Below are positions 1 through 8,057 of a stretch of DNA of 8,057 nt, in pieces (the first letter of the stretch is position 1; every line of letters starts with the position of its first letter). The stretch lies in the NCBI GenBank assembly GCA_000004985.1, contig GG739093.1; one strand, 5' to 3'. This DNA comes from Naegleria gruberi (Eukaryota). Position numbers and translations under genes: made by a program. A model generated the notes under the pieces. That model was not told the DNA's origin, searched no databases, and saw only the letters and a list, made by a program, of their open reading frames with translations.

Positions 1-45
1 TAATAATAATACTACTACTACCAGTAATAATAATAATAATACAAA
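1..45 (+). repeat. Coding AAT/ACT trinucleotide microsatellite (poly-Asn/Thr) at the 5' edge of CDS 1
   Basis: taataataatactactactaccagtaataataataataat is visible directly and lies in frame with the downstream CDS. Confidence 0.7.
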
Positions 46-1441
46 TGATACAAATGATACTAATCAAAGTGATATTAATGAATCCAATCAATCTAATCAA
101 TCTAATAATCAATCTAATAATCAATCAGATAATGAATCAAATGAACCAAGATTTTTACTATTAATTAAAAAACAAAATCAAGTAGAAGAAAGAAAAAAGA
201 AGGAAATTGAAGAATGGGAAAAGAAGAAAATGTCAGATTGTACATTTAAACCTAAAACTAATTCAAAGAAATTATTAGGATTTTCTCATTCAAATTCTAA
301 TAGATTTGATTCATTATATAATATGGCATTCATTCCAAAGAAATTACCAAATGAAAAAACAAGAGAAGAAAAGGAAATGGAAGAATGTACATTTAAACCT
401 AATAGATTAAATACTAAAAAATATCAATCTTCAAATTTATCCAAATCAGTTGATTTTGATTCTATAAGAGGAATTAAAGAAACAGTTGGTAGATTACGTA
501 AAGGAAATGAAGAAAGAGAACGTTTATTTACTTATTTTAATTCATTAAGAGATAAAGTACAAACATCAACAGAAGATTACAAAAATAAGAAAACTAGTTT
601 TAAACCATTTTCATTTCAATTAGATAAACGAAAAAGATCTAAACCTATTTTATATATGGATGTTAATTTAGGTGTTGGTAGAAGTGGTAGAATTGGTATA
701 CATGAAGGTGATAAACCAGAAGAATTGGCTTTTAATTTTGCACAAACTTACAAAATTGATCCAATTTTACAACAACGTTTACAAGATTTAATTAGACAAA
801 ATATGGAAGAAAATCAACATTTATTTAATAATAGAGAAAATAATGGTATTGATGGTATTGATGGTATTGCTGATGATAATAGTAATCATACTGGTGGTGA
901 TGGTGGTGGTGATATGATGATGAATAATCAACAATATTATGAACAAGTTGAAGAACATGAAGATGATGATGACAGATTTATTAATGGTGGCACTAATAAC
1001 AATGATAATCAAATGACAATGATGGATTTAGAAGATGAATCAAATCATGATTTAAAAATTGAAGATTTAAACTCGGCTACAAATCAAGAGTTAATTGCCT
1101 TATCAAAGAGTAATGTTGCAAATTTATCAATTTATGATGAATCATTAGAAAATGTACATACAAATCAACAACAACCTTCAACTAGTAATAATATTACTTC
1201 TACTTCTACTAAAAATTCCACTACCAATAAGGGTATCAATAAGAATAATTCCACTACGACTAGTGCTAATCCATCAAGTAAATCAGTGGTCACATCAACA
1301 ACCTCTAATCGTACTCAATTACCAACTTATAGAAGTAAAACACCAACAATGAAGAATAGTCCAACAACAACATTGAATGAAAAGAGATCTAAGACACCTA
1401 CTACAGACAGATATCAATCAAATAATAAATTTAAATTGTAA
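2..1441 (+). CDS. 5'-partial CDS (open to the window start in the frame of ATG 230) for a low-complexity protein. It has three motif copies: CTFKPKTNSKK, ECTFKPNRLNTKK and TSFKPFSFQLDKRKR. A conserved-looking block GRIGIHEGDKPEELAFNFAQTYKIDP follows, and then a Ser/Thr/Asn-rich C-terminal tail. It may be a TPX2/FAM161-type microtubule-associated motif protein, but the family is not securely recognised.
   Basis: The frame-2 translation from nt 2 has no stop until TAA at 1439-1441. The tracked ORF 230..1441 is the Met-initiated part only. Upstream in-frame codons read NNNTTTTSNNNNNTNDTNDTNQSDINESNQSNQ...EEWEKKKM, so the true start is probably outside the window. Codon usage is AT-rich throughout. 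The repeated motifs are about 48 and 70 residues apart. Confidence 0.6.
   Translation, partial: NNNTTTTSNNNNNTNDTNDTNQSDINESNQSNQSNNQSNNQSDNESNEPRFLLLIKKQNQVEERKKKEIEEWEKKKMSDCTFKPKTNSKKLLGFSHSNSNRFDSLYNMAFIPKKLPNEKTREEKEMEECTFKPNRLNTKKYQSSNLSKSVDFDSIRGIKETVGRLRKGNEERERLFTYFNSLRDKVQTSTEDYKNKKTSFKPFSFQLDKRKRSKPILYMDVNLGVGRSGRIGIHEGDKPEELAFNFAQTYKIDPILQQRLQDLIRQNMEENQHLFNNRENNGIDGIDGIADDNSNHTGGDGGGDMMMNNQQYYEQVEEHEDDDDRFINGGTNNNDNQMTMMDLEDESNHDLKIEDLNSATNQELIALSKSNVANLSIYDESLENVHTNQQQPSTSNNITSTSTKNSTTNKGINKNNSTTTSANPSSKSVVTSTTSNRTQLPTYRSKTPTMKNSPTTTLNEKRSKTPTTDRYQSNNKFKL
86..127 (+). repeat. Tandem 9/12-nt coding repeat (AATCAATCT / AATAATCAATCT) encoding NQS/NNQS units
   Basis: aatcaatctaatcaatctaataatcaatctaataatcaatca is seen in the sequence. 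Confidence 0.6.
845..870 (+). repeat. GGTATTGAT x about 2.9 tandem coding repeat (GIDGIDGI)
   Basis: ggtattgatggtattgatggtattgc sits inside CDS 1 and translates to NGIDGIDGIADD. Confidence 0.7.
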
Positions 1442-1452
1442 TGTATTTTATT

Positions 1453-1458
1453 AATAAA
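1453..1458 (+). promoter_or_regulatory. AATAAA poly(A) signal for CDS 1, 12 nt past the stop codon
   Basis: ttattAATAAAatt lies immediately downstream of TAA 1439-1441. The intergenic spacer to the next ATG (1534) is only 92 nt. Confidence 0.5.
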
Positions 1459-1533
1459 ATTAGACAAGGCGACACTAAAATATCTTTAGTTTCTGATTTT
1501 AGAATTCCTTTATATTGTAATTATCATTAAAAA

Positions 1534-1805
1534 ATGTTGTCACCTAATACCAATGAGACACCTTTAGGCCATGTCAAATATTTGAGAGAGGGAGCAGTGA
1601 TTGTTACCAAGAAAATTAGTCTATTTGTAGAGGTGATTGATCATGTAGATCGTCTTGGTCAACAAGATGTATCCATTGATGATCAAAACTATAATTATTA
1701 TACTATTATTGATAAATTTAAATGTAATAGAGTGGTATATAGAGTAAAACACAATGATCAAATACTTGTTTTAAAGTTGATTGAACATACGGATCGTATT
1801 CTTCC
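1534..1805 (+). CDS. 5' end of a + strand gene, truncated by the N run. The N-terminal 90 aa end in ...YTIIDKFKCNRVVYRVKHNDQILVLKLIEH, which resembles the nucleotide-binding lobe start of a protein-kinase-like fold (APH/choline-kinase-like or a divergent protein kinase).
   Basis: ATG 1534 sits in an aaaaaATG context. The frame stays open to 1805, where the Ns begin. The [hydrophobic]-Y-R-V-x(5)-[ILV]-L-V-L-K pattern resembles kinase subdomains I-II (a VYRV...LVLK analogue of GxGxxGxV...AxK). Confidence 0.45.
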
Positions 1806-4800
1806 NNNNNNNNNNNNNNNNNNNNNNNNNNNNNNNNNNNNNNNNNNNNNNNNNNNNNNNNNNNNNNNNNNNNNNNNNNNNNNNNNNNNNNNNNNNNNNN
1901 NNNNNNNNNNNNNNNNNNNNNNNNNNNNNNNNNNNNNNNNNNNNNNNNNNNNNNNNNNNNNNNNNNNNNNNNNNNNNNNNNNNNNNNNNNNNNNNNNNNN
2001 NNNNNNNNNNNNNNNNNNNNNNNNNNNNNNNNNNNNNNNNNNNNNNNNNNNNNNNNNNNNNNNNNNNNNNNNNNNNNNNNNNNNNNNNNNNNNNNNNNNN
2101 NNNNNNNNNNNNNNNNNNNNNNNNNNNNNNNNNNNNNNNNNNNNNNNNNNNNNNNNNNNNNNNNNNNNNNNNNNNNNNNNNNNNNNNNNNNNNNNNNNNN
2201 NNNNNNNNNNNNNNNNNNNNNNNNNNNNNNNNNNNNNNNNNNNNNNNNNNNNNNNNNNNNNNNNNNNNNNNNNNNNNNNNNNNNNNNNNNNNNNNNNNNN
2301 NNNNNNNNNNNNNNNNNNNNNNNNNNNNNNNNNNNNNNNNNNNNNNNNNNNNNNNNNNNNNNNNNNNNNNNNNNNNNNNNNNNNNNNNNNNNNNNNNNNN
2401 NNNNNNNNNNNNNNNNNNNNNNNNNNNNNNNNNNNNNNNNNNNNNNNNNNNNNNNNNNNNNNNNNNNNNNNNNNNNNNNNNNNNNNNNNNNNNNNNNNNN
2501 NNNNNNNNNNNNNNNNNNNNNNNNNNNNNNNNNNNNNNNNNNNNNNNNNNNNNNNNNNNNNNNNNNNNNNNNNNNNNNNNNNNNNNNNNNNNNNNNNNNN
2601 NNNNNNNNNNNNNNNNNNNNNNNNNNNNNNNNNNNNNNNNNNNNNNNNNNNNNNNNNNNNNNNNNNNNNNNNNNNNNNNNNNNNNNNNNNNNNNNNNNNN
2701 NNNNNNNNNNNNNNNNNNNNNNNNNNNNNNNNNNNNNNNNNNNNNNNNNNNNNNNNNNNNNNNNNNNNNNNNNNNNNNNNNNNNNNNNNNNNNNNNNNNN
2801 NNNNNNNNNNNNNNNNNNNNNNNNNNNNNNNNNNNNNNNNNNNNNNNNNNNNNNNNNNNNNNNNNNNNNNNNNNNNNNNNNNNNNNNNNNNNNNNNNNNN
2901 NNNNNNNNNNNNNNNNNNNNNNNNNNNNNNNNNNNNNNNNNNNNNNNNNNNNNNNNNNNNNNNNNNNNNNNNNNNNNNNNNNNNNNNNNNNNNNNNNNNN
3001 NNNNNNNNNNNNNNNNNNNNNNNNNNNNNNNNNNNNNNNNNNNNNNNNNNNNNNNNNNNNNNNNNNNNNNNNNNNNNNNNNNNNNNNNNNNNNNNNNNNN
3101 NNNNNNNNNNNNNNNNNNNNNNNNNNNNNNNNNNNNNNNNNNNNNNNNNNNNNNNNNNNNNNNNNNNNNNNNNNNNNNNNNNNNNNNNNNNNNNNNNNNN
3201 NNNNNNNNNNNNNNNNNNNNNNNNNNNNNNNNNNNNNNNNNNNNNNNNNNNNNNNNNNNNNNNNNNNNNNNNNNNNNNNNNNNNNNNNNNNNNNNNNNNN
3301 NNNNNNNNNNNNNNNNNNNNNNNNNNNNNNNNNNNNNNNNNNNNNNNNNNNNNNNNNNNNNNNNNNNNNNNNNNNNNNNNNNNNNNNNNNNNNNNNNNNN
3401 NNNNNNNNNNNNNNNNNNNNNNNNNNNNNNNNNNNNNNNNNNNNNNNNNNNNNNNNNNNNNNNNNNNNNNNNNNNNNNNNNNNNNNNNNNNNNNNNNNNN
3501 NNNNNNNNNNNNNNNNNNNNNNNNNNNNNNNNNNNNNNNNNNNNNNNNNNNNNNNNNNNNNNNNNNNNNNNNNNNNNNNNNNNNNNNNNNNNNNNNNNNN
3601 NNNNNNNNNNNNNNNNNNNNNNNNNNNNNNNNNNNNNNNNNNNNNNNNNNNNNNNNNNNNNNNNNNNNNNNNNNNNNNNNNNNNNNNNNNNNNNNNNNNN
3701 NNNNNNNNNNNNNNNNNNNNNNNNNNNNNNNNNNNNNNNNNNNNNNNNNNNNNNNNNNNNNNNNNNNNNNNNNNNNNNNNNNNNNNNNNNNNNNNNNNNN
3801 NNNNNNNNNNNNNNNNNNNNNNNNNNNNNNNNNNNNNNNNNNNNNNNNNNNNNNNNNNNNNNNNNNNNNNNNNNNNNNNNNNNNNNNNNNNNNNNNNNNN
3901 NNNNNNNNNNNNNNNNNNNNNNNNNNNNNNNNNNNNNNNNNNNNNNNNNNNNNNNNNNNNNNNNNNNNNNNNNNNNNNNNNNNNNNNNNNNNNNNNNNNN
4001 NNNNNNNNNNNNNNNNNNNNNNNNNNNNNNNNNNNNNNNNNNNNNNNNNNNNNNNNNNNNNNNNNNNNNNNNNNNNNNNNNNNNNNNNNNNNNNNNNNNN
4101 NNNNNNNNNNNNNNNNNNNNNNNNNNNNNNNNNNNNNNNNNNNNNNNNNNNNNNNNNNNNNNNNNNNNNNNNNNNNNNNNNNNNNNNNNNNNNNNNNNNN
4201 NNNNNNNNNNNNNNNNNNNNNNNNNNNNNNNNNNNNNNNNNNNNNNNNNNNNNNNNNNNNNNNNNNNNNNNNNNNNNNNNNNNNNNNNNNNNNNNNNNNN
4301 NNNNNNNNNNNNNNNNNNNNNNNNNNNNNNNNNNNNNNNNNNNNNNNNNNNNNNNNNNNNNNNNNNNNNNNNNNNNNNNNNNNNNNNNNNNNNNNNNNNN
4401 NNNNNNNNNNNNNNNNNNNNNNNNNNNNNNNNNNNNNNNNNNNNNNNNNNNNNNNNNNNNNNNNNNNNNNNNNNNNNNNNNNNNNNNNNNNNNNNNNNNN
4501 NNNNNNNNNNNNNNNNNNNNNNNNNNNNNNNNNNNNNNNNNNNNNNNNNNNNNNNNNNNNNNNNNNNNNNNNNNNNNNNNNNNNNNNNNNNNNNNNNNNN
4601 NNNNNNNNNNNNNNNNNNNNNNNNNNNNNNNNNNNNNNNNNNNNNNNNNNNNNNNNNNNNNNNNNNNNNNNNNNNNNNNNNNNNNNNNNNNNNNNNNNNN
4701 NNNNNNNNNNNNNNNNNNNNNNNNNNNNNNNNNNNNNNNNNNNNNNNNNNNNNNNNNNNNNNNNNNNNNNNNNNNNNNNNNNNNNNNNNNNNNNNNNNNN

Positions 4801-7010
4801 NNNNNNNNNNNNNNNNNNNNNNNNNNNNNNNNNNNNNNNNNNNNNNNNNNNNNNNNNNNNNNNNNNNNNNNNNNNNNNNNNNNNNNNNNNNNNNNNNNNN
4901 NNNNNNNNNNNNNNNNNNNNNNNNNNNNNNNNNNNNNNNNNNNNNNNNNNNNNNNNNNNNNNNNNNNNNNNNNNNNNNNNNNNNNNNNNNNNNNNNNNNN
5001 NNNNNNNNNNNNNNNNNNNNNNNNNNNNNNNNNNNNNNNNNNNNNNNNNNNNNNNNNNNNNNNNNNNNNNNNNNNNNNNNNNNNNNNNNNNNNNNNNNNN
5101 NNNNNNNNNNNNNNNNNNNNNNNNNNNNNNNNNNNNNNNNNNNNNNNNNNNNNNNNNNNNNNNNNNNNNNNNNNNNNNNNNNNNNNNNNNNNNNNNNNNN
5201 NNNNNNNNNNNNNNNNNNNNNNNNNNNNNNNNNNNNNNNNNNNNNNNNNNNNNNNNNNNNNNNNNNNNNNNNNNNNNNNNNNNNNNNNNNNNNNNNNNNN
5301 NNNNNNNNNNNNNNNNNNNNNNNNNNNNNNNNNNNNNNNNNNNNNNNNNNNNNNNNNNNNNNNNNNNNNNNNNNNNNNNNNNNNNNNNNNNNNNNNNNNN
5401 NNNNNNNNNNNNNNNNNNNNNNNNNNNNNNNNNNNNNNNNNNNNNNNNNNNNNNNNNNNNNNNNNNNNNNNNNNNNNNNNNNNNNNNNNNNNNNNNNNNN
5501 NNNNNNNNNNNNNNNNNNNNNNNNNNNNNNNNNNNNNNNNNNNNNNNNNNNNNNNNNNNNNNNNNNNNNNNNNNNNNNNNNNNNNNNNNNNNNNNNNNNN
5601 NNNNNNNNNNNNNNNNNNNNNNNNNNNNNNNNNNNNNNNNNNNNNNNNNNNNNNNNNNNNNNNNNNNNNNNNNNNNNNNNNNNNNNNNNNNNNNNNNNNN
5701 NNNNNNNNNNNNNNNNNNNNNNNNNNNNNNNNNNNNNNNNNNNNNNNNNNNNNNNNNNNNNNNNNNNNNNNNNNNNNNNNNNNNNNNNNNNNNNNNNNNN
5801 NNNNNNNNNNNNNNNNNNNNNNNNNNNNNNNNNNNNNNNNNNNNNNNNNNNNNNNNNNNNNNNNNNNNNNNNNNNNNNNNNNNNNNNNNNNNNNNNNNNN
5901 NNNNNNNNNNNNNNNNNNNNNNNNNNNNNNNNNNNNNNNNNNNNNNNNNNNNNNNNNNNNNNNNNNNNNNNNNNNNNNNNNNNNNNNNNNNNNNNNNNNN
6001 NNNNNNNNNNNNNNNNNNNNNNNNNNNNNNNNNNNNNNNNNNNNNNNNNNNNNNNNNNNNNNNNNNNNNNNNNNNNNNNNNNNNNNNNNNNNNNNNNNNN
6101 NNNNNNNNNNNNNNNNNNNNNNNNNNNNNNNNNNNNNNNNNNNNNNNNNNNNNNNNNNNNNNNNNNNNNNNNNNNNNNNNNNNNNNNNNNNNNNNNNNNN
6201 NNNNNNNNNNNNNNNNNNNNNNNNNNNNNNNNNNNNNNNNNNNNNNNNNNNNNNNNNNNNNNNNNNNNNNNNNNNNNNNNNNNNNNNNNNNNNNNNNNNN
6301 NNNNNNNNNNNNNNNNNNNNNNNNNNNNNNNNNNNNNNNNNNNNNNNNNNNNNNNNNNNNNNNNNNNNNNNNNNNNNNNNNNNNNNNNNNNNNNNNNNNN
6401 NNNNNNNNNNNNNNNNNNNNNNNNNNNNNNNNNNNNNNNNNNNNNNNNNNNNNNNNNNNNNNNNNNNNNNNNNNNNNNNNNNNNNNNNNNNNNNNNNNNN
6501 NNNNNNNNNNNNNNNNNNNNNNNNNNNNNNNNNNNNNNNNNNNNNNNNNNNNNNNNNNNNNNNNNNNNNNNNNNNNNNNNNNNNNNNNNNNNNNNNNNNN
6601 NNNNNNNNNNNNNNNNNNNNNNNNNNNNNNNNNNNNNNNNNNNNNNNNNNNNNNNNNNNNNNNNNNNNNNNNNNNNNNNNNNNNNNNNNNNNNNNNNNNN
6701 NNNNNNNNNNNNNNNNNNNNNNNNNNNNNNNNNNNNNNNNNNNNNNNNNNNNNNNNNNNNNNNNNNNNNNNNNNNNNNNNNNNNNNNNNNNNNNNNNNNN
6801 NNNNNNNNNNNNNNNNNNNNNNNNNNNNNNNNNNNNNNNNNNNNNNNNNNNNNNNNNNNNNNNNNNNNNNNNNNNNNNNNNNNNNNNNNNNNNNNNNNNN
6901 NNNNNNNNNNNNNNNNNNNNNNNNNNNNNNNNNNNNNNNNNNNNNNNNNNNNNNNNNNNNNNNNNNNNNNNNNNNNNNNNNNNNNNNNNNNNNNNNNNNN
7001 NNNNNNNNNN
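1806..7010. other. 5,205-nt run of N (assembly gap or masked segment); its content cannot be determined
   Basis: Uninterrupted n characters. ORFs 1534..7017, 1758..7037, 1771..7524 and 1781..7048 in the track are X-filled artefacts of this run. Confidence 0.99.
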
Positions 7011-7524
7011 ACTGTAACATATCAGGTAAATTAACAAATTTCAATTGAATTGTAGAATTATTTTCATGTGGTGAAGAAGATTGATCTATTTGATGAATAT
7101 CAATCATTTTTCTTGTAATATTTGAATGTATCCATTCTTTATAAACAATATTTAAAGATTGTGTTAAAAAAGGTTCAAATCTATAAAATTCTTGACGAAT
7201 TGACATTGCAATATCCATATCATAATTCATTACATTTGTAAAATCAACCATTACACTTCTAGCTGATGGTATAGATGATCCATCACTTTCACTTTTTGTA
7301 TGAATATCTGCAAATTGTATTTGTAATCTTTCACCTAATGGTTCTTTACCTGATTCATGAACAAACATATTTAAATTTGTTTGATTTAATGAATGTCTTA
7401 AAAATTCATGAAACCATTGTTTAATTTGTTGATTCACTTGTTGTTCTCCACCACCACTACCATCTCCAAATTCATCATGATTCATAGTACTTGTTTCATT
7501 ATCTCCTCCATTACCTTCATTCAT
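7011..7524 (-). CDS. mcm6: 5' portion (171 codons) of DNA replication licensing factor MCM6; the remainder lies in the N run
   Basis: The minus-strand ATG is at 7524-7522 and the frame is open to 7011. The N-terminal block QIKQWFHEFLRHS...SARSVMVDFTNVMNYDMDIAMSIRQEFYRFEPFLTQSLNIVYKEW...LKFVNLPD aligns with the MCM6 N-terminal domain as recalled from memory. Yeast Mcm6 has KVREAFEQFLEDF...[42 protein letters not shown]. Human MCM6 has KLFLDFLEEF...[40 protein letters not shown]...FQDLP. There is an in-frame upstream stop at 7624-7626 with no ATG between, so 7524 is the first Met. Confidence 0.75.
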
Positions 7525-7527
7525 GGT

Positions 7528-7563
7528 TATATTGTTATTATTGTTATTATTATTATTGTTATT
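7528..7563 (-). repeat. (AAT)n/(AAC) microsatellite immediately upstream of the mcm6 ATG (5' leader)
   Basis: + strand tatattgttattattgttattattattattgtt; on the coding strand this is 12 Asn codons in frame with the ATG, but behind the stop at 7624-7626. Confidence 0.6.
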
Positions 7564-7620
7564 ACTATTATATTGTTGTTTTGTTGTTGTTGTTACTACT
7601 ATTATATTACTTGTAGATGA

Positions 7621-7641
7621 TAGTTATAAATAATATAAATT
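7621..7641 (-). promoter_or_regulatory. TATA-like element about 100 nt upstream of the mcm6 ATG
   Basis: On the coding (-) strand this reads ATTTATATTATTTATAACTA. A dictyostelid-typical A/T homopolymer run (coding-strand A9, + strand 7698-7708) lies further upstream. This is a weak call in AT-rich DNA. Confidence 0.25.
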
Positions 7642-7722
7642 AATTGTTGGATGATGTGATGACAACACAAATTAAAAAATTGTTGTGTGAGATGATGTTT
7701 TTGACAATTTTTTTTTAATTGA

Positions 7723-7735
7723 ATTTTTCAAGTTT
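7723..7735. promoter_or_regulatory. E2F-type site TTTCGGCGCGAAA (contains GCGCGAAA, the reverse complement of TTTCGCGC) in the mcm6 promoter
   Basis: This is the only GC-rich island in the 7621-7816 spacer. It is imperfectly palindromic and lies about 200-210 nt upstream of the mcm6 ATG. Confidence 0.5.
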
Positions 7736-7738
7736 CGG

Positions 7739-7750
7739 CGCGAAAATATT
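7739..7750. promoter_or_regulatory. Second E2F-type site TTTGGCGCCAAG (TTTSGCGCSAAA-like, bidirectional)
   Basis: It lies 3 nt from the first site, and the two sites together span 7723-7750. It matches the TTTGGCGC core on + and TTGGCGCC on -. Confidence 0.5.
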
Positions 7751-7793
7751 TGGCGCCAAGAATCTAATAAAAACAAATTAATATCATTTAAAT

Positions 7794-7799
7794 TTTATT
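7794..7799 (-). promoter_or_regulatory. AATAAA poly(A) signal (TTTATT on +) for the uracil phosphoribosyltransferase gene, about 18 nt past its stop codon
   Basis: aattTTTATTaac on the + strand, downstream (minus sense) of the stop codon at 7819-7817. Confidence 0.45.
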
Positions 7800-7816
7800 A
7801 ACATAAATTAAAATAA

Positions 7817-8057
7817 TTATAACATGTAAGAAACATTTCCTTGATATTGTCTATCACCAGCATCACCTAAACCAGGTACAATATAACCATGTTCATTTAA
7901 AATAGAATCAACACCACAACAATAAACATCAACATCTGGATGTGCTAAATTAACATTCTTAATACCAACATGTGCTGCTAAAATACACATAAATATTACC
8001 TTTTTAACTCCCCATTGTTTAATACGTTCAATAGTTGCAACTGCACTACCACCTGTG
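7817..8057 (-). CDS. uprt: 3' portion (79 codons + stop) of uracil phosphoribosyltransferase; the gene continues beyond the window's right edge
   Basis: Minus-strand translation from 8056 reads [79 protein letters not shown]. This matches the UPRTase C-terminus; E. coli Upp has ...ATGGSVIATIDLLKKAG...[54 protein letters not shown]. It includes the PRPP-binding ATGGS motif and the conserved YI(V/I)PGLGDAGDR motif. It is absent from the ORF track because it has no Met in the window. Confidence 0.85.
   Translation of the reverse strand, partial: [79 protein letters not shown]

What the first reader, a model, noticed from the sequence alone, without database searches (positions are those of the whole stretch)
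7621..7816. Paired near-consensus E2F sites form the only GC island in the promoter of an MCM6 gene
The 196-nt spacer between the UPRT stop and the mcm6 ATG is almost pure A/T. The exception is cgGCGCGaaaatatttGGCGCCaag (7723-7750). This reads as two adjacent E2F-type elements (TTTCGGCGCGAAA and TTTGGCGCCAAG). In animals and plants, E2F/DP-Rb control of MCM2-7 transcription is the textbook case of G1/S regulation. A dictyostelid mcm6 promoter with tandem E2F sites about 200 nt upstream of the ATG is a compact natural promoter. It would be worth testing as a model of Rb-dependent S-phase control. The pairing of a DNA-replication gene with these motifs also supports both calls.
Basis: partly seen in the sequence, partly recalled or inferred. 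Interest (0 to 1): 0.6.

Follow-up and report, generated by a model that had tools for sequence, protein, structure and literature searches.

The report
Paired E2F sites upstream of Naegleria mcm6
Two textbook E2F binding motifs really do sit upstream of an MCM6 replication gene, but the organism is the amoeboflagellate Naegleria gruberi, not a slime mould; related species carry the same motif before mcm6 and before their retinoblastoma gene, which suggests that this cell-cycle wiring is very old.

Summary
The motif is real but misplaced. CGGCGCGAAAATATTTGGCGCCAAG lies at 7736-7760, not 7723-7750. The UPRT-stop-to-ATG spacer is 292 nt (7525-7816), not 196.

It holds the only two matches to TTTSSCGC in the visible sequence: TTTCGCGC (7738-7745, minus strand) and TTTGGCGC (7749-7756, plus strand). 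Shuffles almost never give one match and never gave two.

The UPRT and MCM6 calls hold. The organism call does not. The MCM6 N-terminal exon is 169/171 identical to Naegleria gruberi MCM6 and unrelated to dictyostelid N-termini. The Dictyostelium rblA framing therefore does not apply.

N. gruberi has E2F, DP, E2F7/8 and RB. Its E2F and DP recognition helices are nearly identical to human E2F4/DP2.

In 74.6 kb from other Heterolobosea, 7 of 14 TTTSSCGS sites fall in the 300 nt upstream of mcm6 or RB start codons, which is 2.8% of the sequence (P = 4e-8). Five of the eight promoters examined carry two sites 15-20 bp apart.

Best reading: functional E2F/DP sites driving mcm6, directly upstream of a conserved A/T-rich, TATA-like block. 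This is a new member of a known kind. It is moderately interesting as cis-regulatory evidence for an E2F regulon in Discoba. Binding, the transcription start and a genome-wide test remain undone.

The parts
7749..7760 (.). Distal E2F site, the near-palindrome TTTGGCGCCAAG. It is a perfect TTTGGCGC on the plus strand (7749-7756) and a 7/8 match, CTTGGCGC, on the mcm6 (minus) strand (7753-7760). It lies 225-236 nt upstream of the mcm6 ATG.
   Evidence: The same TTTGGCGCCAA(A/T) palindrome occurs upstream of W. magna mcm6 (L005, -57) and W. magna RB (L006, -32).
7734..7745 (-). Proximal E2F site. It reads TTTCGCGCCGAA on the mcm6 sense strand, with the perfect TTTCGCGC at 7738-7745. The plus strand reads GCGCGAAA. 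It lies 210-221 nt upstream of the ATG. Its GC core is 15 bp from the core of the distal site, and the two T-tracts face each other.
   Evidence: An identical TTTTCGCGCC aligns in the N. lovaniensis mcm6 promoter (L004, -153). GCGCGAAA is the E2F site used experimentally in PMC4862756.
7705..7732 (-). A/T-rich block directly downstream of the proximal site. The sense strand reads CTTGAAAAATTCAATTAAAAAAAAATTG and contains the palindrome TTGAAAAATTCAA (7719-7731). I infer that it is a TATA-like core promoter.
   Evidence: Alignment A2. A TT[T/G]AAAAATT[T/C]AA...AAAAA block follows the E2F core in the N. lovaniensis, N. fowleri and W. magna mcm6 promoters. No transcription start data are available.
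7525..7704 (-). Presumed 5' leader of mcm6. It is AAT/CAA-rich and open in frame, but has no ATG upstream of 7524.
   Evidence: translation. The GenBank N. gruberi model starts at the same Met.
7011..7524 (-). Visible part of the first coding stretch of mcm6 (171 codons, ATG at 7522-7524). The rest is hidden under the N run.
   Evidence: Pfam MCM_N, 3.5e-6. Only MCM6 chains are hit in the PDB. 169/171 identical to N. gruberi MCM6.
7817..8057 (-). 3' end of a uracil phosphoribosyltransferase gene, with stop codon TAA at 7817-7819. It is on the same strand as mcm6 and upstream of it. An AATAAA follows about 20 nt after the stop.
   Evidence: Pfam UPRTase, 9.3e-23. Translation and sequence.

Best explanation
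The island is a pair of inverted E2F/DP binding sites in the promoter of the Naegleria gruberi mcm6 gene.

Inferred mechanism:
- An E2F/DP heterodimer binds each GC core through its winged-helix RRXYD recognition helices. N. gruberi has one typical E2F and one DP.
- The two cores are 15 bp apart and sit immediately upstream of a conserved A/T-rich, TATA-like block. Bound factors would therefore lie a few tens of bp upstream of the transcription start.
- In cycling amoebae, free E2F/DP would activate mcm6 for S phase.
- When the single pocket protein (RB) is bound, or when the atypical E2F7/8-like repressor occupies the sites, transcription would be shut off, for example on exit to flagellate or cyst.
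- The same motif, often also paired, upstream of the RB gene suggests an autoregulatory loop.

What is shown: the motif, its rarity, its conservation and enrichment at mcm6 and RB promoters in related species, and the presence of the factors with conserved DNA-reading residues.

What is inferred: binding, the position of the transcription start, the direction of regulation and RB dependence.
For: 1. Two perfect TTTSSCGC matches are the only ones in the visible window. Shuffles give one site or more in 0.3% of trials and two in 0 of 20,000.

2. The gene is MCM6, a canonical E2F target class.

3. Orthologous mcm6 promoters:
- N. lovaniensis has TTTCGCGC at -153, the only TTTSSCGC match in 11.3 kb.
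- W. magna has TTTGGCGC at -57, the only match in 10.9 kb, plus TTTAGCGC 20 bp downstream.
- Naegleria sp. has aTTCCCGCCAAAA at -41/-37.
- The surrounding sequence is otherwise barely alignable, at 41% column identity.

4. RB promoters also carry pairs:
- W. magna: ATTGGCGCC plus TTTTGGCGCCAAAT at -47 and -32, cores 15 bp apart.
- Naegleria sp.: cTTCCCGCC and CCCGCCAAAA at -43 and -23.
- Acrasis kona: CCGCCAAA and TTTGGCGC at -95 and -76.

5. Pooled over the seven loci outside the window (74.6 kb):
- 7 of 14 TTTSSCGS sites lie in the 300 nt upstream of the mcm6 or RB start codons, which is 2.8% of the sequence (binomial P = 4e-8).
- For strict TTTSSCGC, 4 of 6 sites do (P = 9e-6).
- For mcm6 loci alone, 3 of 5 do (P = 3e-4).

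6. N. gruberi E2F, DP, DEL (E2F7/8) and RB are listed in the source data of PMC4862756.
- Pfam finds E2F_TDP in both E2F and DP.
- RB appears as 'retinoblastoma protein [Naegleria gruberi]'.
- The E2F recognition region [24 protein letters not shown] is identical to human E2F4 in the DNA complex 1CF7.
- The DP region NIRRRVYDALNVLMA matches DP2.
Against: - There is no binding, expression or transcription-start evidence for Naegleria.
- The genome-wide enrichment test at other replication genes could not be run, because the N. gruberi genome was not retrievable.
- The N. fowleri mcm6 promoter has only degenerate sites, CCCCGCC and ATTGGCGC.
- The compared species are related, so the hits are not fully independent.
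- For two RB loci I placed the start codon myself, from homology to the RB N-terminus, rather than using the database gene call.
- The sites lie 210-236 nt from the ATG, farther than in W. magna or the Naegleria sp. contig.
- They also lie only 57-83 nt past the UPRT stop codon.
Confidence: 0.75

Rival explanations
1. The island is a composite DREAM-type element. The proximal GC core acts as a CDE, and the CTTGAA four bases downstream acts as a CHR bound by a LIN54-like protein. That would couple mcm6 to a combined S/M-phase programme rather than to simple E2F activation.
For: On the sense strand the sequence reads TTTCGCGCC-GAAA-CTTGAA. From my own knowledge, this is the 4-nt CDE-CHR spacing and the CTTGAA variant seen in the mammalian cyclin A promoter. 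TTTCAAA or TTTAAA follows the E2F core in the N. fowleri mcm6 and A. kona RB promoters. RB shares its promoter with a kinesin gene.
Against: The spacing and the hexamer are not conserved: N. lovaniensis has 11 nt then TTTAAA, and W. magna has 6 nt then TTTAAA. Such hexamers are frequent in 17% G+C DNA; I estimate about 1-2% chance at a fixed offset. The A/T block is explained more simply as a TATA-like core promoter. I did not check whether Naegleria has LIN54.
Confidence: 0.08
2. The inverted GC arms work as an RNA or DNA hairpin, serving as a 3'-end or termination signal for the upstream UPRT transcript rather than as a protein-binding site for mcm6.
For: The pair folds as a hairpin of 7 + 3 base pairs, -10.4 kcal/mol, z = -2.2. 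It lies 57-83 nt downstream of the UPRT stop codon on the same strand.
Against: The fold is only modestly better than shuffles (4 of 200 do as well) and follows automatically from two inverted E2F sites. The motif recurs upstream of mcm6 in species where the upstream neighbour is not UPRT: mitofilin in N. fowleri, a kinase in W. magna and small unannotated ORFs in N. lovaniensis. In N. lovaniensis it occurs as a single site that cannot form the hairpin. Rfam has no match. An AATAAA lies well before the island.
Confidence: 0.04
3. The two motifs are a chance or neutral GC-rich remnant with no function.
For: The element is short, and no functional data exist.
Against: 0 of 20,000 shuffles of the spacer give two sites. 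Related genomes show independent enrichment at mcm6 and RB promoters, P = 4e-8.
Confidence: 0.03
4. The sites are bound mainly by the atypical E2F7/8-like protein (NgruDEL) or another GC-box factor, and act purely as repressor sites.
For: N. gruberi encodes a DEL/E2F7-8 protein with RRIYD in its first DNA-binding domain. From my own knowledge, atypical E2Fs recognise the same TTCCCGCCAAAA-type sequences.
Against: Sequence alone cannot separate this from the main model. It is a variant of the main model rather than a true alternative. From general knowledge, typical E2F/DP sites at replication genes are bound by both classes in animals and plants.
Confidence: 0.1

Closest known systems
E2F sites in animal and plant MCM2-7 and other replication-gene promoters (E2F/DP-pocket protein control)
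   Same: The consensus is the same (TTTSSCGC / GCGSSAAA). The target class is the same (an MCM subunit). The position is promoter-proximal. The organism has E2F, DP and RB, with recognition helices essentially identical to human E2F4/DP2.
   Different: The lineage is Heterolobosea (Discoba). My searches of the held literature found no description of E2F cis-elements there. No binding or expression data exist. The distance to the ATG is unusually long in this species.
Paired or inverted E2F sites: adenovirus E2 early promoter, human E2F1 and p107 promoters, and the DHFR overlapping inverted site TTTCGCGCCAAA (from my own knowledge)
   Same: Two sites in inverted orientation lie close together. 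The distal site is a near-perfect TTTGGCGCCAAA palindrome. A pair also occurs upstream of the pocket-protein gene, as in p107 and RB1.
   Different: The core-to-core spacing here is 15-20 bp across Heterolobosea. Nothing is known about cooperative binding.
Dictyostelium RblA/E2F regulon (Strasser et al. 2012, PMC3386910)
   Same: It is an amoeboid protist in which mcm2-7, including mcm6, are repressed by the single RB orthologue. It shows that the Rb-MCM link exists outside animals and plants.
   Different: It is a different supergroup (Amoebozoa). The window is not from a dictyostelid. In what I read of that paper, the only mention of an E2F element was one in a Tdd-5 transposon, and no promoter motif analysis turned up.
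CDE/CHR elements bound by the DREAM complex
   Same: A GC core is followed after 4 nt by CTTGAA on the sense strand.
   Different: The arrangement is not conserved in orthologous promoters, and MCM genes are classically E2F-only targets. I treat it as a lead only.

Membership tests
E2F/DP-responsive promoter element | Match to the E2F consensus TTTSSCGC (= GCGSSAAA) | tested here: met
   There are two perfect matches, at 7738-7745 (minus) and 7749-7756 (plus), each with a 7/8 match on the other strand. The consensus is as quoted in PMC4862756.
E2F/DP-responsive promoter element | More frequent than chance in its context | tested here: met
   Expected 0.01 matches per window. One site or more arose in 0.3% of spacer shuffles, and two in 0 of 20,000.
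E2F/DP-responsive promoter element | Lies in the 5' flank of the regulated gene, close to the transcription start | tested here: inconclusive
   The sites are 210-236 nt upstream of the mcm6 ATG, directly upstream of a conserved A/T-rich block that may be the core promoter. No transcription start data are available.
E2F/DP-responsive promoter element | The organism encodes E2F and DP with intact DNA-contacting RRXYD helices, plus a pocket protein | tested here: met
   NgruE2F, NgruDP, NgruDEL and NgruRB are in the PMC4862756 source data. Pfam finds E2F_TDP, E2F_CC-MB and DP domains. The alignment to 1CF7 chains A and B shows near-identical recognition helices. The N. gruberi RB protein was retrieved.
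E2F/DP-responsive promoter element | The target is a cell-cycle or replication gene | tested here: met
   The gene is MCM6.
E2F/DP-responsive promoter element | The motif is conserved in orthologous promoters | tested here: met
   It is present upstream of mcm6 in N. lovaniensis, W. magna and a Naegleria sp. contig, and degenerate in N. fowleri. Outside the window, 3 of 5 TTTSSCGS hits fall in 3.3% of the sequence, P = 3e-4.
E2F/DP-responsive promoter element | The motif is enriched at other genes of the regulon | tested here: inconclusive
   It is met for the RB gene in three Heterolobosea (pooled P = 4e-8). It could not be tested for other replication genes, because the N. gruberi genome was not retrievable.
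E2F/DP-responsive promoter element | Physical binding by E2F/DP, and RB- or cell-cycle-dependent expression | not testable with these tools
   This needs EMSA, DAP-seq or ChIP, and expression time courses.
   The exon is 169/171 identical to N. gruberi MCM6. It is 27% identical over 45 residues to D. citrinum MCM6. The lineage is Discoba; Heterolobosea.
CDE/CHR (DREAM) composite element | A GC-rich CDE followed after 4 nt by a CHR (TTYGAA-type), conserved in orthologues | tested here: inconclusive
   The window has CGCGCC-GAAA-CTTGAA. The spacing and hexamer differ in N. lovaniensis, N. fowleri and W. magna. LIN54 presence was not examined.

The most novel reading that the evidence does not exclude
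This may be the first cis-regulatory footprint of an E2F regulon in Discoba. On this reading, the wiring 'E2F site -> MCM helicase gene' and 'E2F site -> RB gene' (autoregulation) was inherited from the last eukaryotic common ancestor, not only the proteins. Heterolobosea would then have a lineage-typical architecture: two inverted sites 15-20 bp apart, abutting a TATA-like block. In the RB case the sites are shared with a divergent kinesin gene, which hints at joint control of S-phase and mitotic genes as in Dictyostelium.
Probability: 0.45. Interest if true: 0.55.

Novelty: new member of a known kind. Interest (0 to 1): 0.4.

Why it matters
[quoted passage not shown] That argument rests on protein presence. 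The regulatory link to replication genes has been shown experimentally mainly in animals and plants, and by expression data in Dictyostelium.

Consensus E2F sites lie upstream of mcm6 and RB in Naegleria, Willaertia and Acrasis. The E2F/DP recognition helices of N. gruberi are nearly identical to the human ones. Together these make the ancestral-wiring claim directly testable in a supergroup far from those models.

Practically, the roughly 60-nt element plus A/T block is a compact candidate for a proliferation-dependent promoter in Naegleria, where genetic tools and known cis-elements are scarce. N. fowleri is a lethal pathogen, so knowing how its replication genes are switched on is of some applied interest.

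The correction of the organism also matters.

Tried and rejected
- Dictyostelium framing. I read Strasser et al. 2012. mcm6 (DDB_G0272760) is RblA-repressed there, but this became irrelevant once the window proved to be Naegleria.
- Metagenome scan. A scan for more copies of the N-terminal exon found nothing: 411 pattern matches, none confirmed.
- N. gruberi loci. MCM6 (P0006) and RB (P0123) were 'not on record'. No genome-wide or same-genome test was therefore possible.
- Literature. Searches for Naegleria plus E2F, retinoblastoma or promoter motifs found no earlier description of such sites.
- Non-coding RNA. Rfam at E <= 1 and the tRNA scan were both empty for 7011-8057.
- Hairpin or terminator reading. 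The fold is weak and the orthologues do not support it.
- CDE/CHR reading. I considered it, but it is not conserved.
- Chance. Rejected by shuffles and by cross-species enrichment.
The third went to RB because N. gruberi sequences were available to me only for cell-cycle regulators (PMC4862756 source data), not for other replication proteins.

Full report
**The window.** It is 8057 nt, but 1806-7010 is a run of 5205 N. Only 1-1805 and 7011-8057 can be read. On the minus strand, the right-hand part holds two things:
- The C-terminus of a uracil phosphoribosyltransferase (Pfam UPRTase, 9.3e-23). Its stop codon TAA is at 7817-7819.
- The start of a gene with an MCM N-terminal domain (Pfam MCM_N, 3.5e-6). 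Its first ATG is at 7522-7524.

The true spacer is 7525-7816, 292 nt and 20% G+C.

**The observation.** The quoted string is at 7736-7760, about 10-13 nt to the right of the stated coordinates.
- It holds two perfect matches to the E2F consensus TTTSSCGC: TTTCGCGC at 7738-7745 on the minus strand (the mcm6 sense strand) and TTTGGCGC at 7749-7756 on the plus strand.
- Each has a 7/8 match on the opposite strand, so each site is quasi-palindromic (TTTCGCGCCGAA and TTTGGCGCCAAG).
- The T-tracts face each other, and the GC cores are 15 bp apart.
- These are the only consensus matches and the only GCGC tetramers in the visible 2852 nt, and the two longest G/C runs.
- The tool's shuffles expect 0.01 matches.
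- In my dinucleotide shuffles of the spacer, one site arose in 0.3% of trials and two in none of 20,000.

**Gene identity.** A profile of the visible exon plus two orthologous exons hits only MCM6 chains in the PDB. The second exon of the orthologue in L001 scores 634 bits to yeast MCM6, against 375 for the next MCM match, an archaeal MCM chain. The MCM6 call stands.

**Organism.**
- The first homologue search returned only two exon-sized metagenome proteins at 63% identity, and no dictyostelid.
- Searching with the neighbouring exon showed that L001 is Naegleria fowleri (99% identity). It also listed N. lovaniensis, N. gruberi, Willaertia magna and, far lower, dictyostelid MCM6 proteins.
- The N. 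gruberi protein begins MNEGNGGDNETSTMNHDEFGDG... It is 169/171 identical to the window's exon; the only difference is a two-residue SG indel.
- D. citrinum MCM6 shares 27% identity over 45 residues.
- The window is therefore N. gruberi or a very close strain. Its lineage is Heterolobosea, Discoba.

The Dictyostelium RblA data show mcm6 3.7- and 11.4-fold up in the rblA null. They remain a useful parallel but are not evidence about this locus.

**Are the trans-factors present?** The source data of Medina et al. 2016 (PMC4862756) list N. gruberi E2F, DP, a DEL/E2F7-8 protein and RB.
- Pfam finds E2F_TDP plus E2F_CC-MB in the E2F, and E2F_TDP plus DP in the DP.
- Against the E2F4-DP2-DNA crystal structure 1CF7, the E2F recognition region [24 protein letters not shown] is identical to human E2F4. 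The DP region NIRRRVYDALNVLMA matches DP2.
- RB was retrieved as 'retinoblastoma protein [Naegleria gruberi]'.

The DNA specificity is therefore expected to be the canonical one. The plus-strand reading of the proximal site, GCGCGAAA, is the very E2F site those authors used experimentally.

**Orthologous mcm6 promoters.** I fetched mcm6 loci from N. fowleri (L001), a Naegleria sp. from metagenomes (L002, L003), N. lovaniensis (L004) and W. magna (L005).
- N. lovaniensis has TTTCGCGC at -153, the only TTTSSCGC match in 11.3 kb.
- W. magna has TTTGGCGCCAAT at -57, the only match in 10.9 kb, followed 20 bp later by TTTAGCGCGCAA.
- The Naegleria sp. has aTTCCCGCCAAAA at -41/-37.
- N. fowleri has only degenerate versions, CCCCGCC and ATTGGCGC.

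In the alignment (41% mean column identity), the invariant columns are the C-CGC core and part of an A/T-rich block, TT[T/G]AAAAATT[T/C]AA..AAAAA, that follows it by 6-12 nt. In W. magna this block lies just before the ATG. I read it as a TATA-like core promoter; that is an inference. Leaving the window out to avoid ascertainment bias, 3 of 5 TTTSSCGS hits lie in the 300 nt upstream of the mcm6 ATG. That region is 3.3% of the sequence (P = 3.4e-4).

**A second expected target.** The genome itself was not retrievable, so I used the last homologue search on N. gruberi RB and fetched RB loci from three species.
- W. magna (L006): ATTGGCGCC and the perfect palindrome TTTTGGCGCCAAAT lie at -47 and -32 of the RB ATG. 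The cores are 15 bp apart, the same spacing as in the window.
- Naegleria sp. (L007, L008): cTTCCCGCC and CCCGCCAAAA lie at -43 and -23 of the probable start.
- Acrasis kona (L009): CCGCCAAA and TTTGGCGC lie at -95 and -76.

For the last two loci the database gene call missed or misplaced the first exon. I placed the start by homology to the N-terminus of the longer N. fowleri and W. magna RB proteins.

Pooling the seven loci outside the window (74.6 kb), 7 of 14 TTTSSCGS sites fall in the 2.8% of sequence that is target promoter (P = 4e-8). For strict TTTSSCGC, 4 of 6 do (P = 9e-6). Five of the eight promoters have two sites 15-20 bp apart.

**Rivals.**
- Chance is excluded by the numbers above.
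- An RNA hairpin for the UPRT 3' end. The pair folds to -10.4 kcal/mol, z = -2.2, but that follows automatically from two inverted sites. The motif also recurs where the upstream gene differs and as a single site.
- Non-coding RNA. Rfam and tRNA scans are empty.
- A CDE/CHR-like reading (CGCGCC-GAAA-CTTGAA) is intriguing but not conserved.
- Whether the typical E2F/DP or the atypical DEL protein occupies the sites cannot be told from sequence.

**Comparison with the known, and novelty.** This works like the classic E2F sites of animal and plant MCM promoters, and it passes every membership feature that sequence analysis can test. Binding and regulation are untested.
- It is not a member of the dictyostelid RblA regulon.
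- I found no paper describing E2F cis-elements in Naegleria or other Discoba in the held literature.
- I rate it a new member of a known kind.

A specialist would expect such sites, given the conserved factors, so the surprise is modest. The result does turn the 'E2F-Rb control is ancestral to eukaryotes' argument from protein presence into a testable statement about cis-regulatory wiring, and it supplies a compact candidate promoter. Interest is 0.4.

Noticed in passing
window 1806-7010: A run of 5205 N hides most of the mcm6 gene and the rest of the plus-strand ORF that starts at 1534. The long 'ORFs' listed across it in four frames are artefacts of the N run.
   Followed up: partly
window 7453-7458: The window encodes two extra residues (Ser-Gly, in a GGT/AGT repeat) relative to the GenBank N. 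gruberi MCM6 model. This suggests a different strain or assembly, or an indel polymorphism.
   Followed up: no
window 7705-7732 (minus strand): An A/T-rich block lies directly downstream of the proximal E2F site and contains the perfect palindrome TTGAAAAATTCAA (7719-7731). A CHR-like CTTGAA sits 4 nt after the GC core. A similar TTTAAAAATTTAAAA block follows the E2F core in the N. lovaniensis, N. fowleri and W. magna mcm6 promoters. It may be a Naegleria core-promoter element.
   Followed up: partly
L006 9794-10000; L007 about 595-693: The RB gene is arranged head-to-head with a kinesin gene in both W. magna and the Naegleria sp. contig. The paired E2F sites lie in the 100-200 nt between them, so one element may serve both a pocket-protein gene and a possibly mitotic kinesin.
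   Followed up: no
L007 694-1116; L009 from 4183: Three public RB gene models appear to lack an N-terminal exon that the N. fowleri and W. magna models have (859 and 862 aa). They are N. gruberi (733 aa), the Naegleria sp. contig (732 aa) and Acrasis kona (643 aa). For the latter two, the missing exon is present just upstream in the loci; the N. gruberi locus could not be retrieved.
   Followed up: partly
L001 3129-3343: The N. fowleri mcm6 promoter has no perfect E2F consensus, only CCCCGCC and ATTGGCGC, although it keeps the downstream A/T block. This may be site turnover or weaker sites in the pathogen.
   Followed up: no
window 7736-7757: Four of the 17 CpG dinucleotides in the visible window lie inside the 22-nt island. 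From my own knowledge, Naegleria has cytosine methylation/TET enzymes, so methylation sensitivity of these sites could matter.
   Followed up: no
window 1-1805: There are two plus-strand ORFs with no Pfam match. One is 230-1441 and is rich in Asn/Ser/Thr runs. The other starts at 1534 and runs into the N block. The 92-nt spacer between them has no E2F-like motif.
   Followed up: no
L004 9489; L006 2488: Two of the TTTSSCGS sites outside the target promoters lie in divergent intergenic regions: ribosomal L4 / cation ATPase in N. lovaniensis, and HEAT-repeat / metallophosphatase in W. magna. They are possible further E2F targets or background.
   Followed up: no
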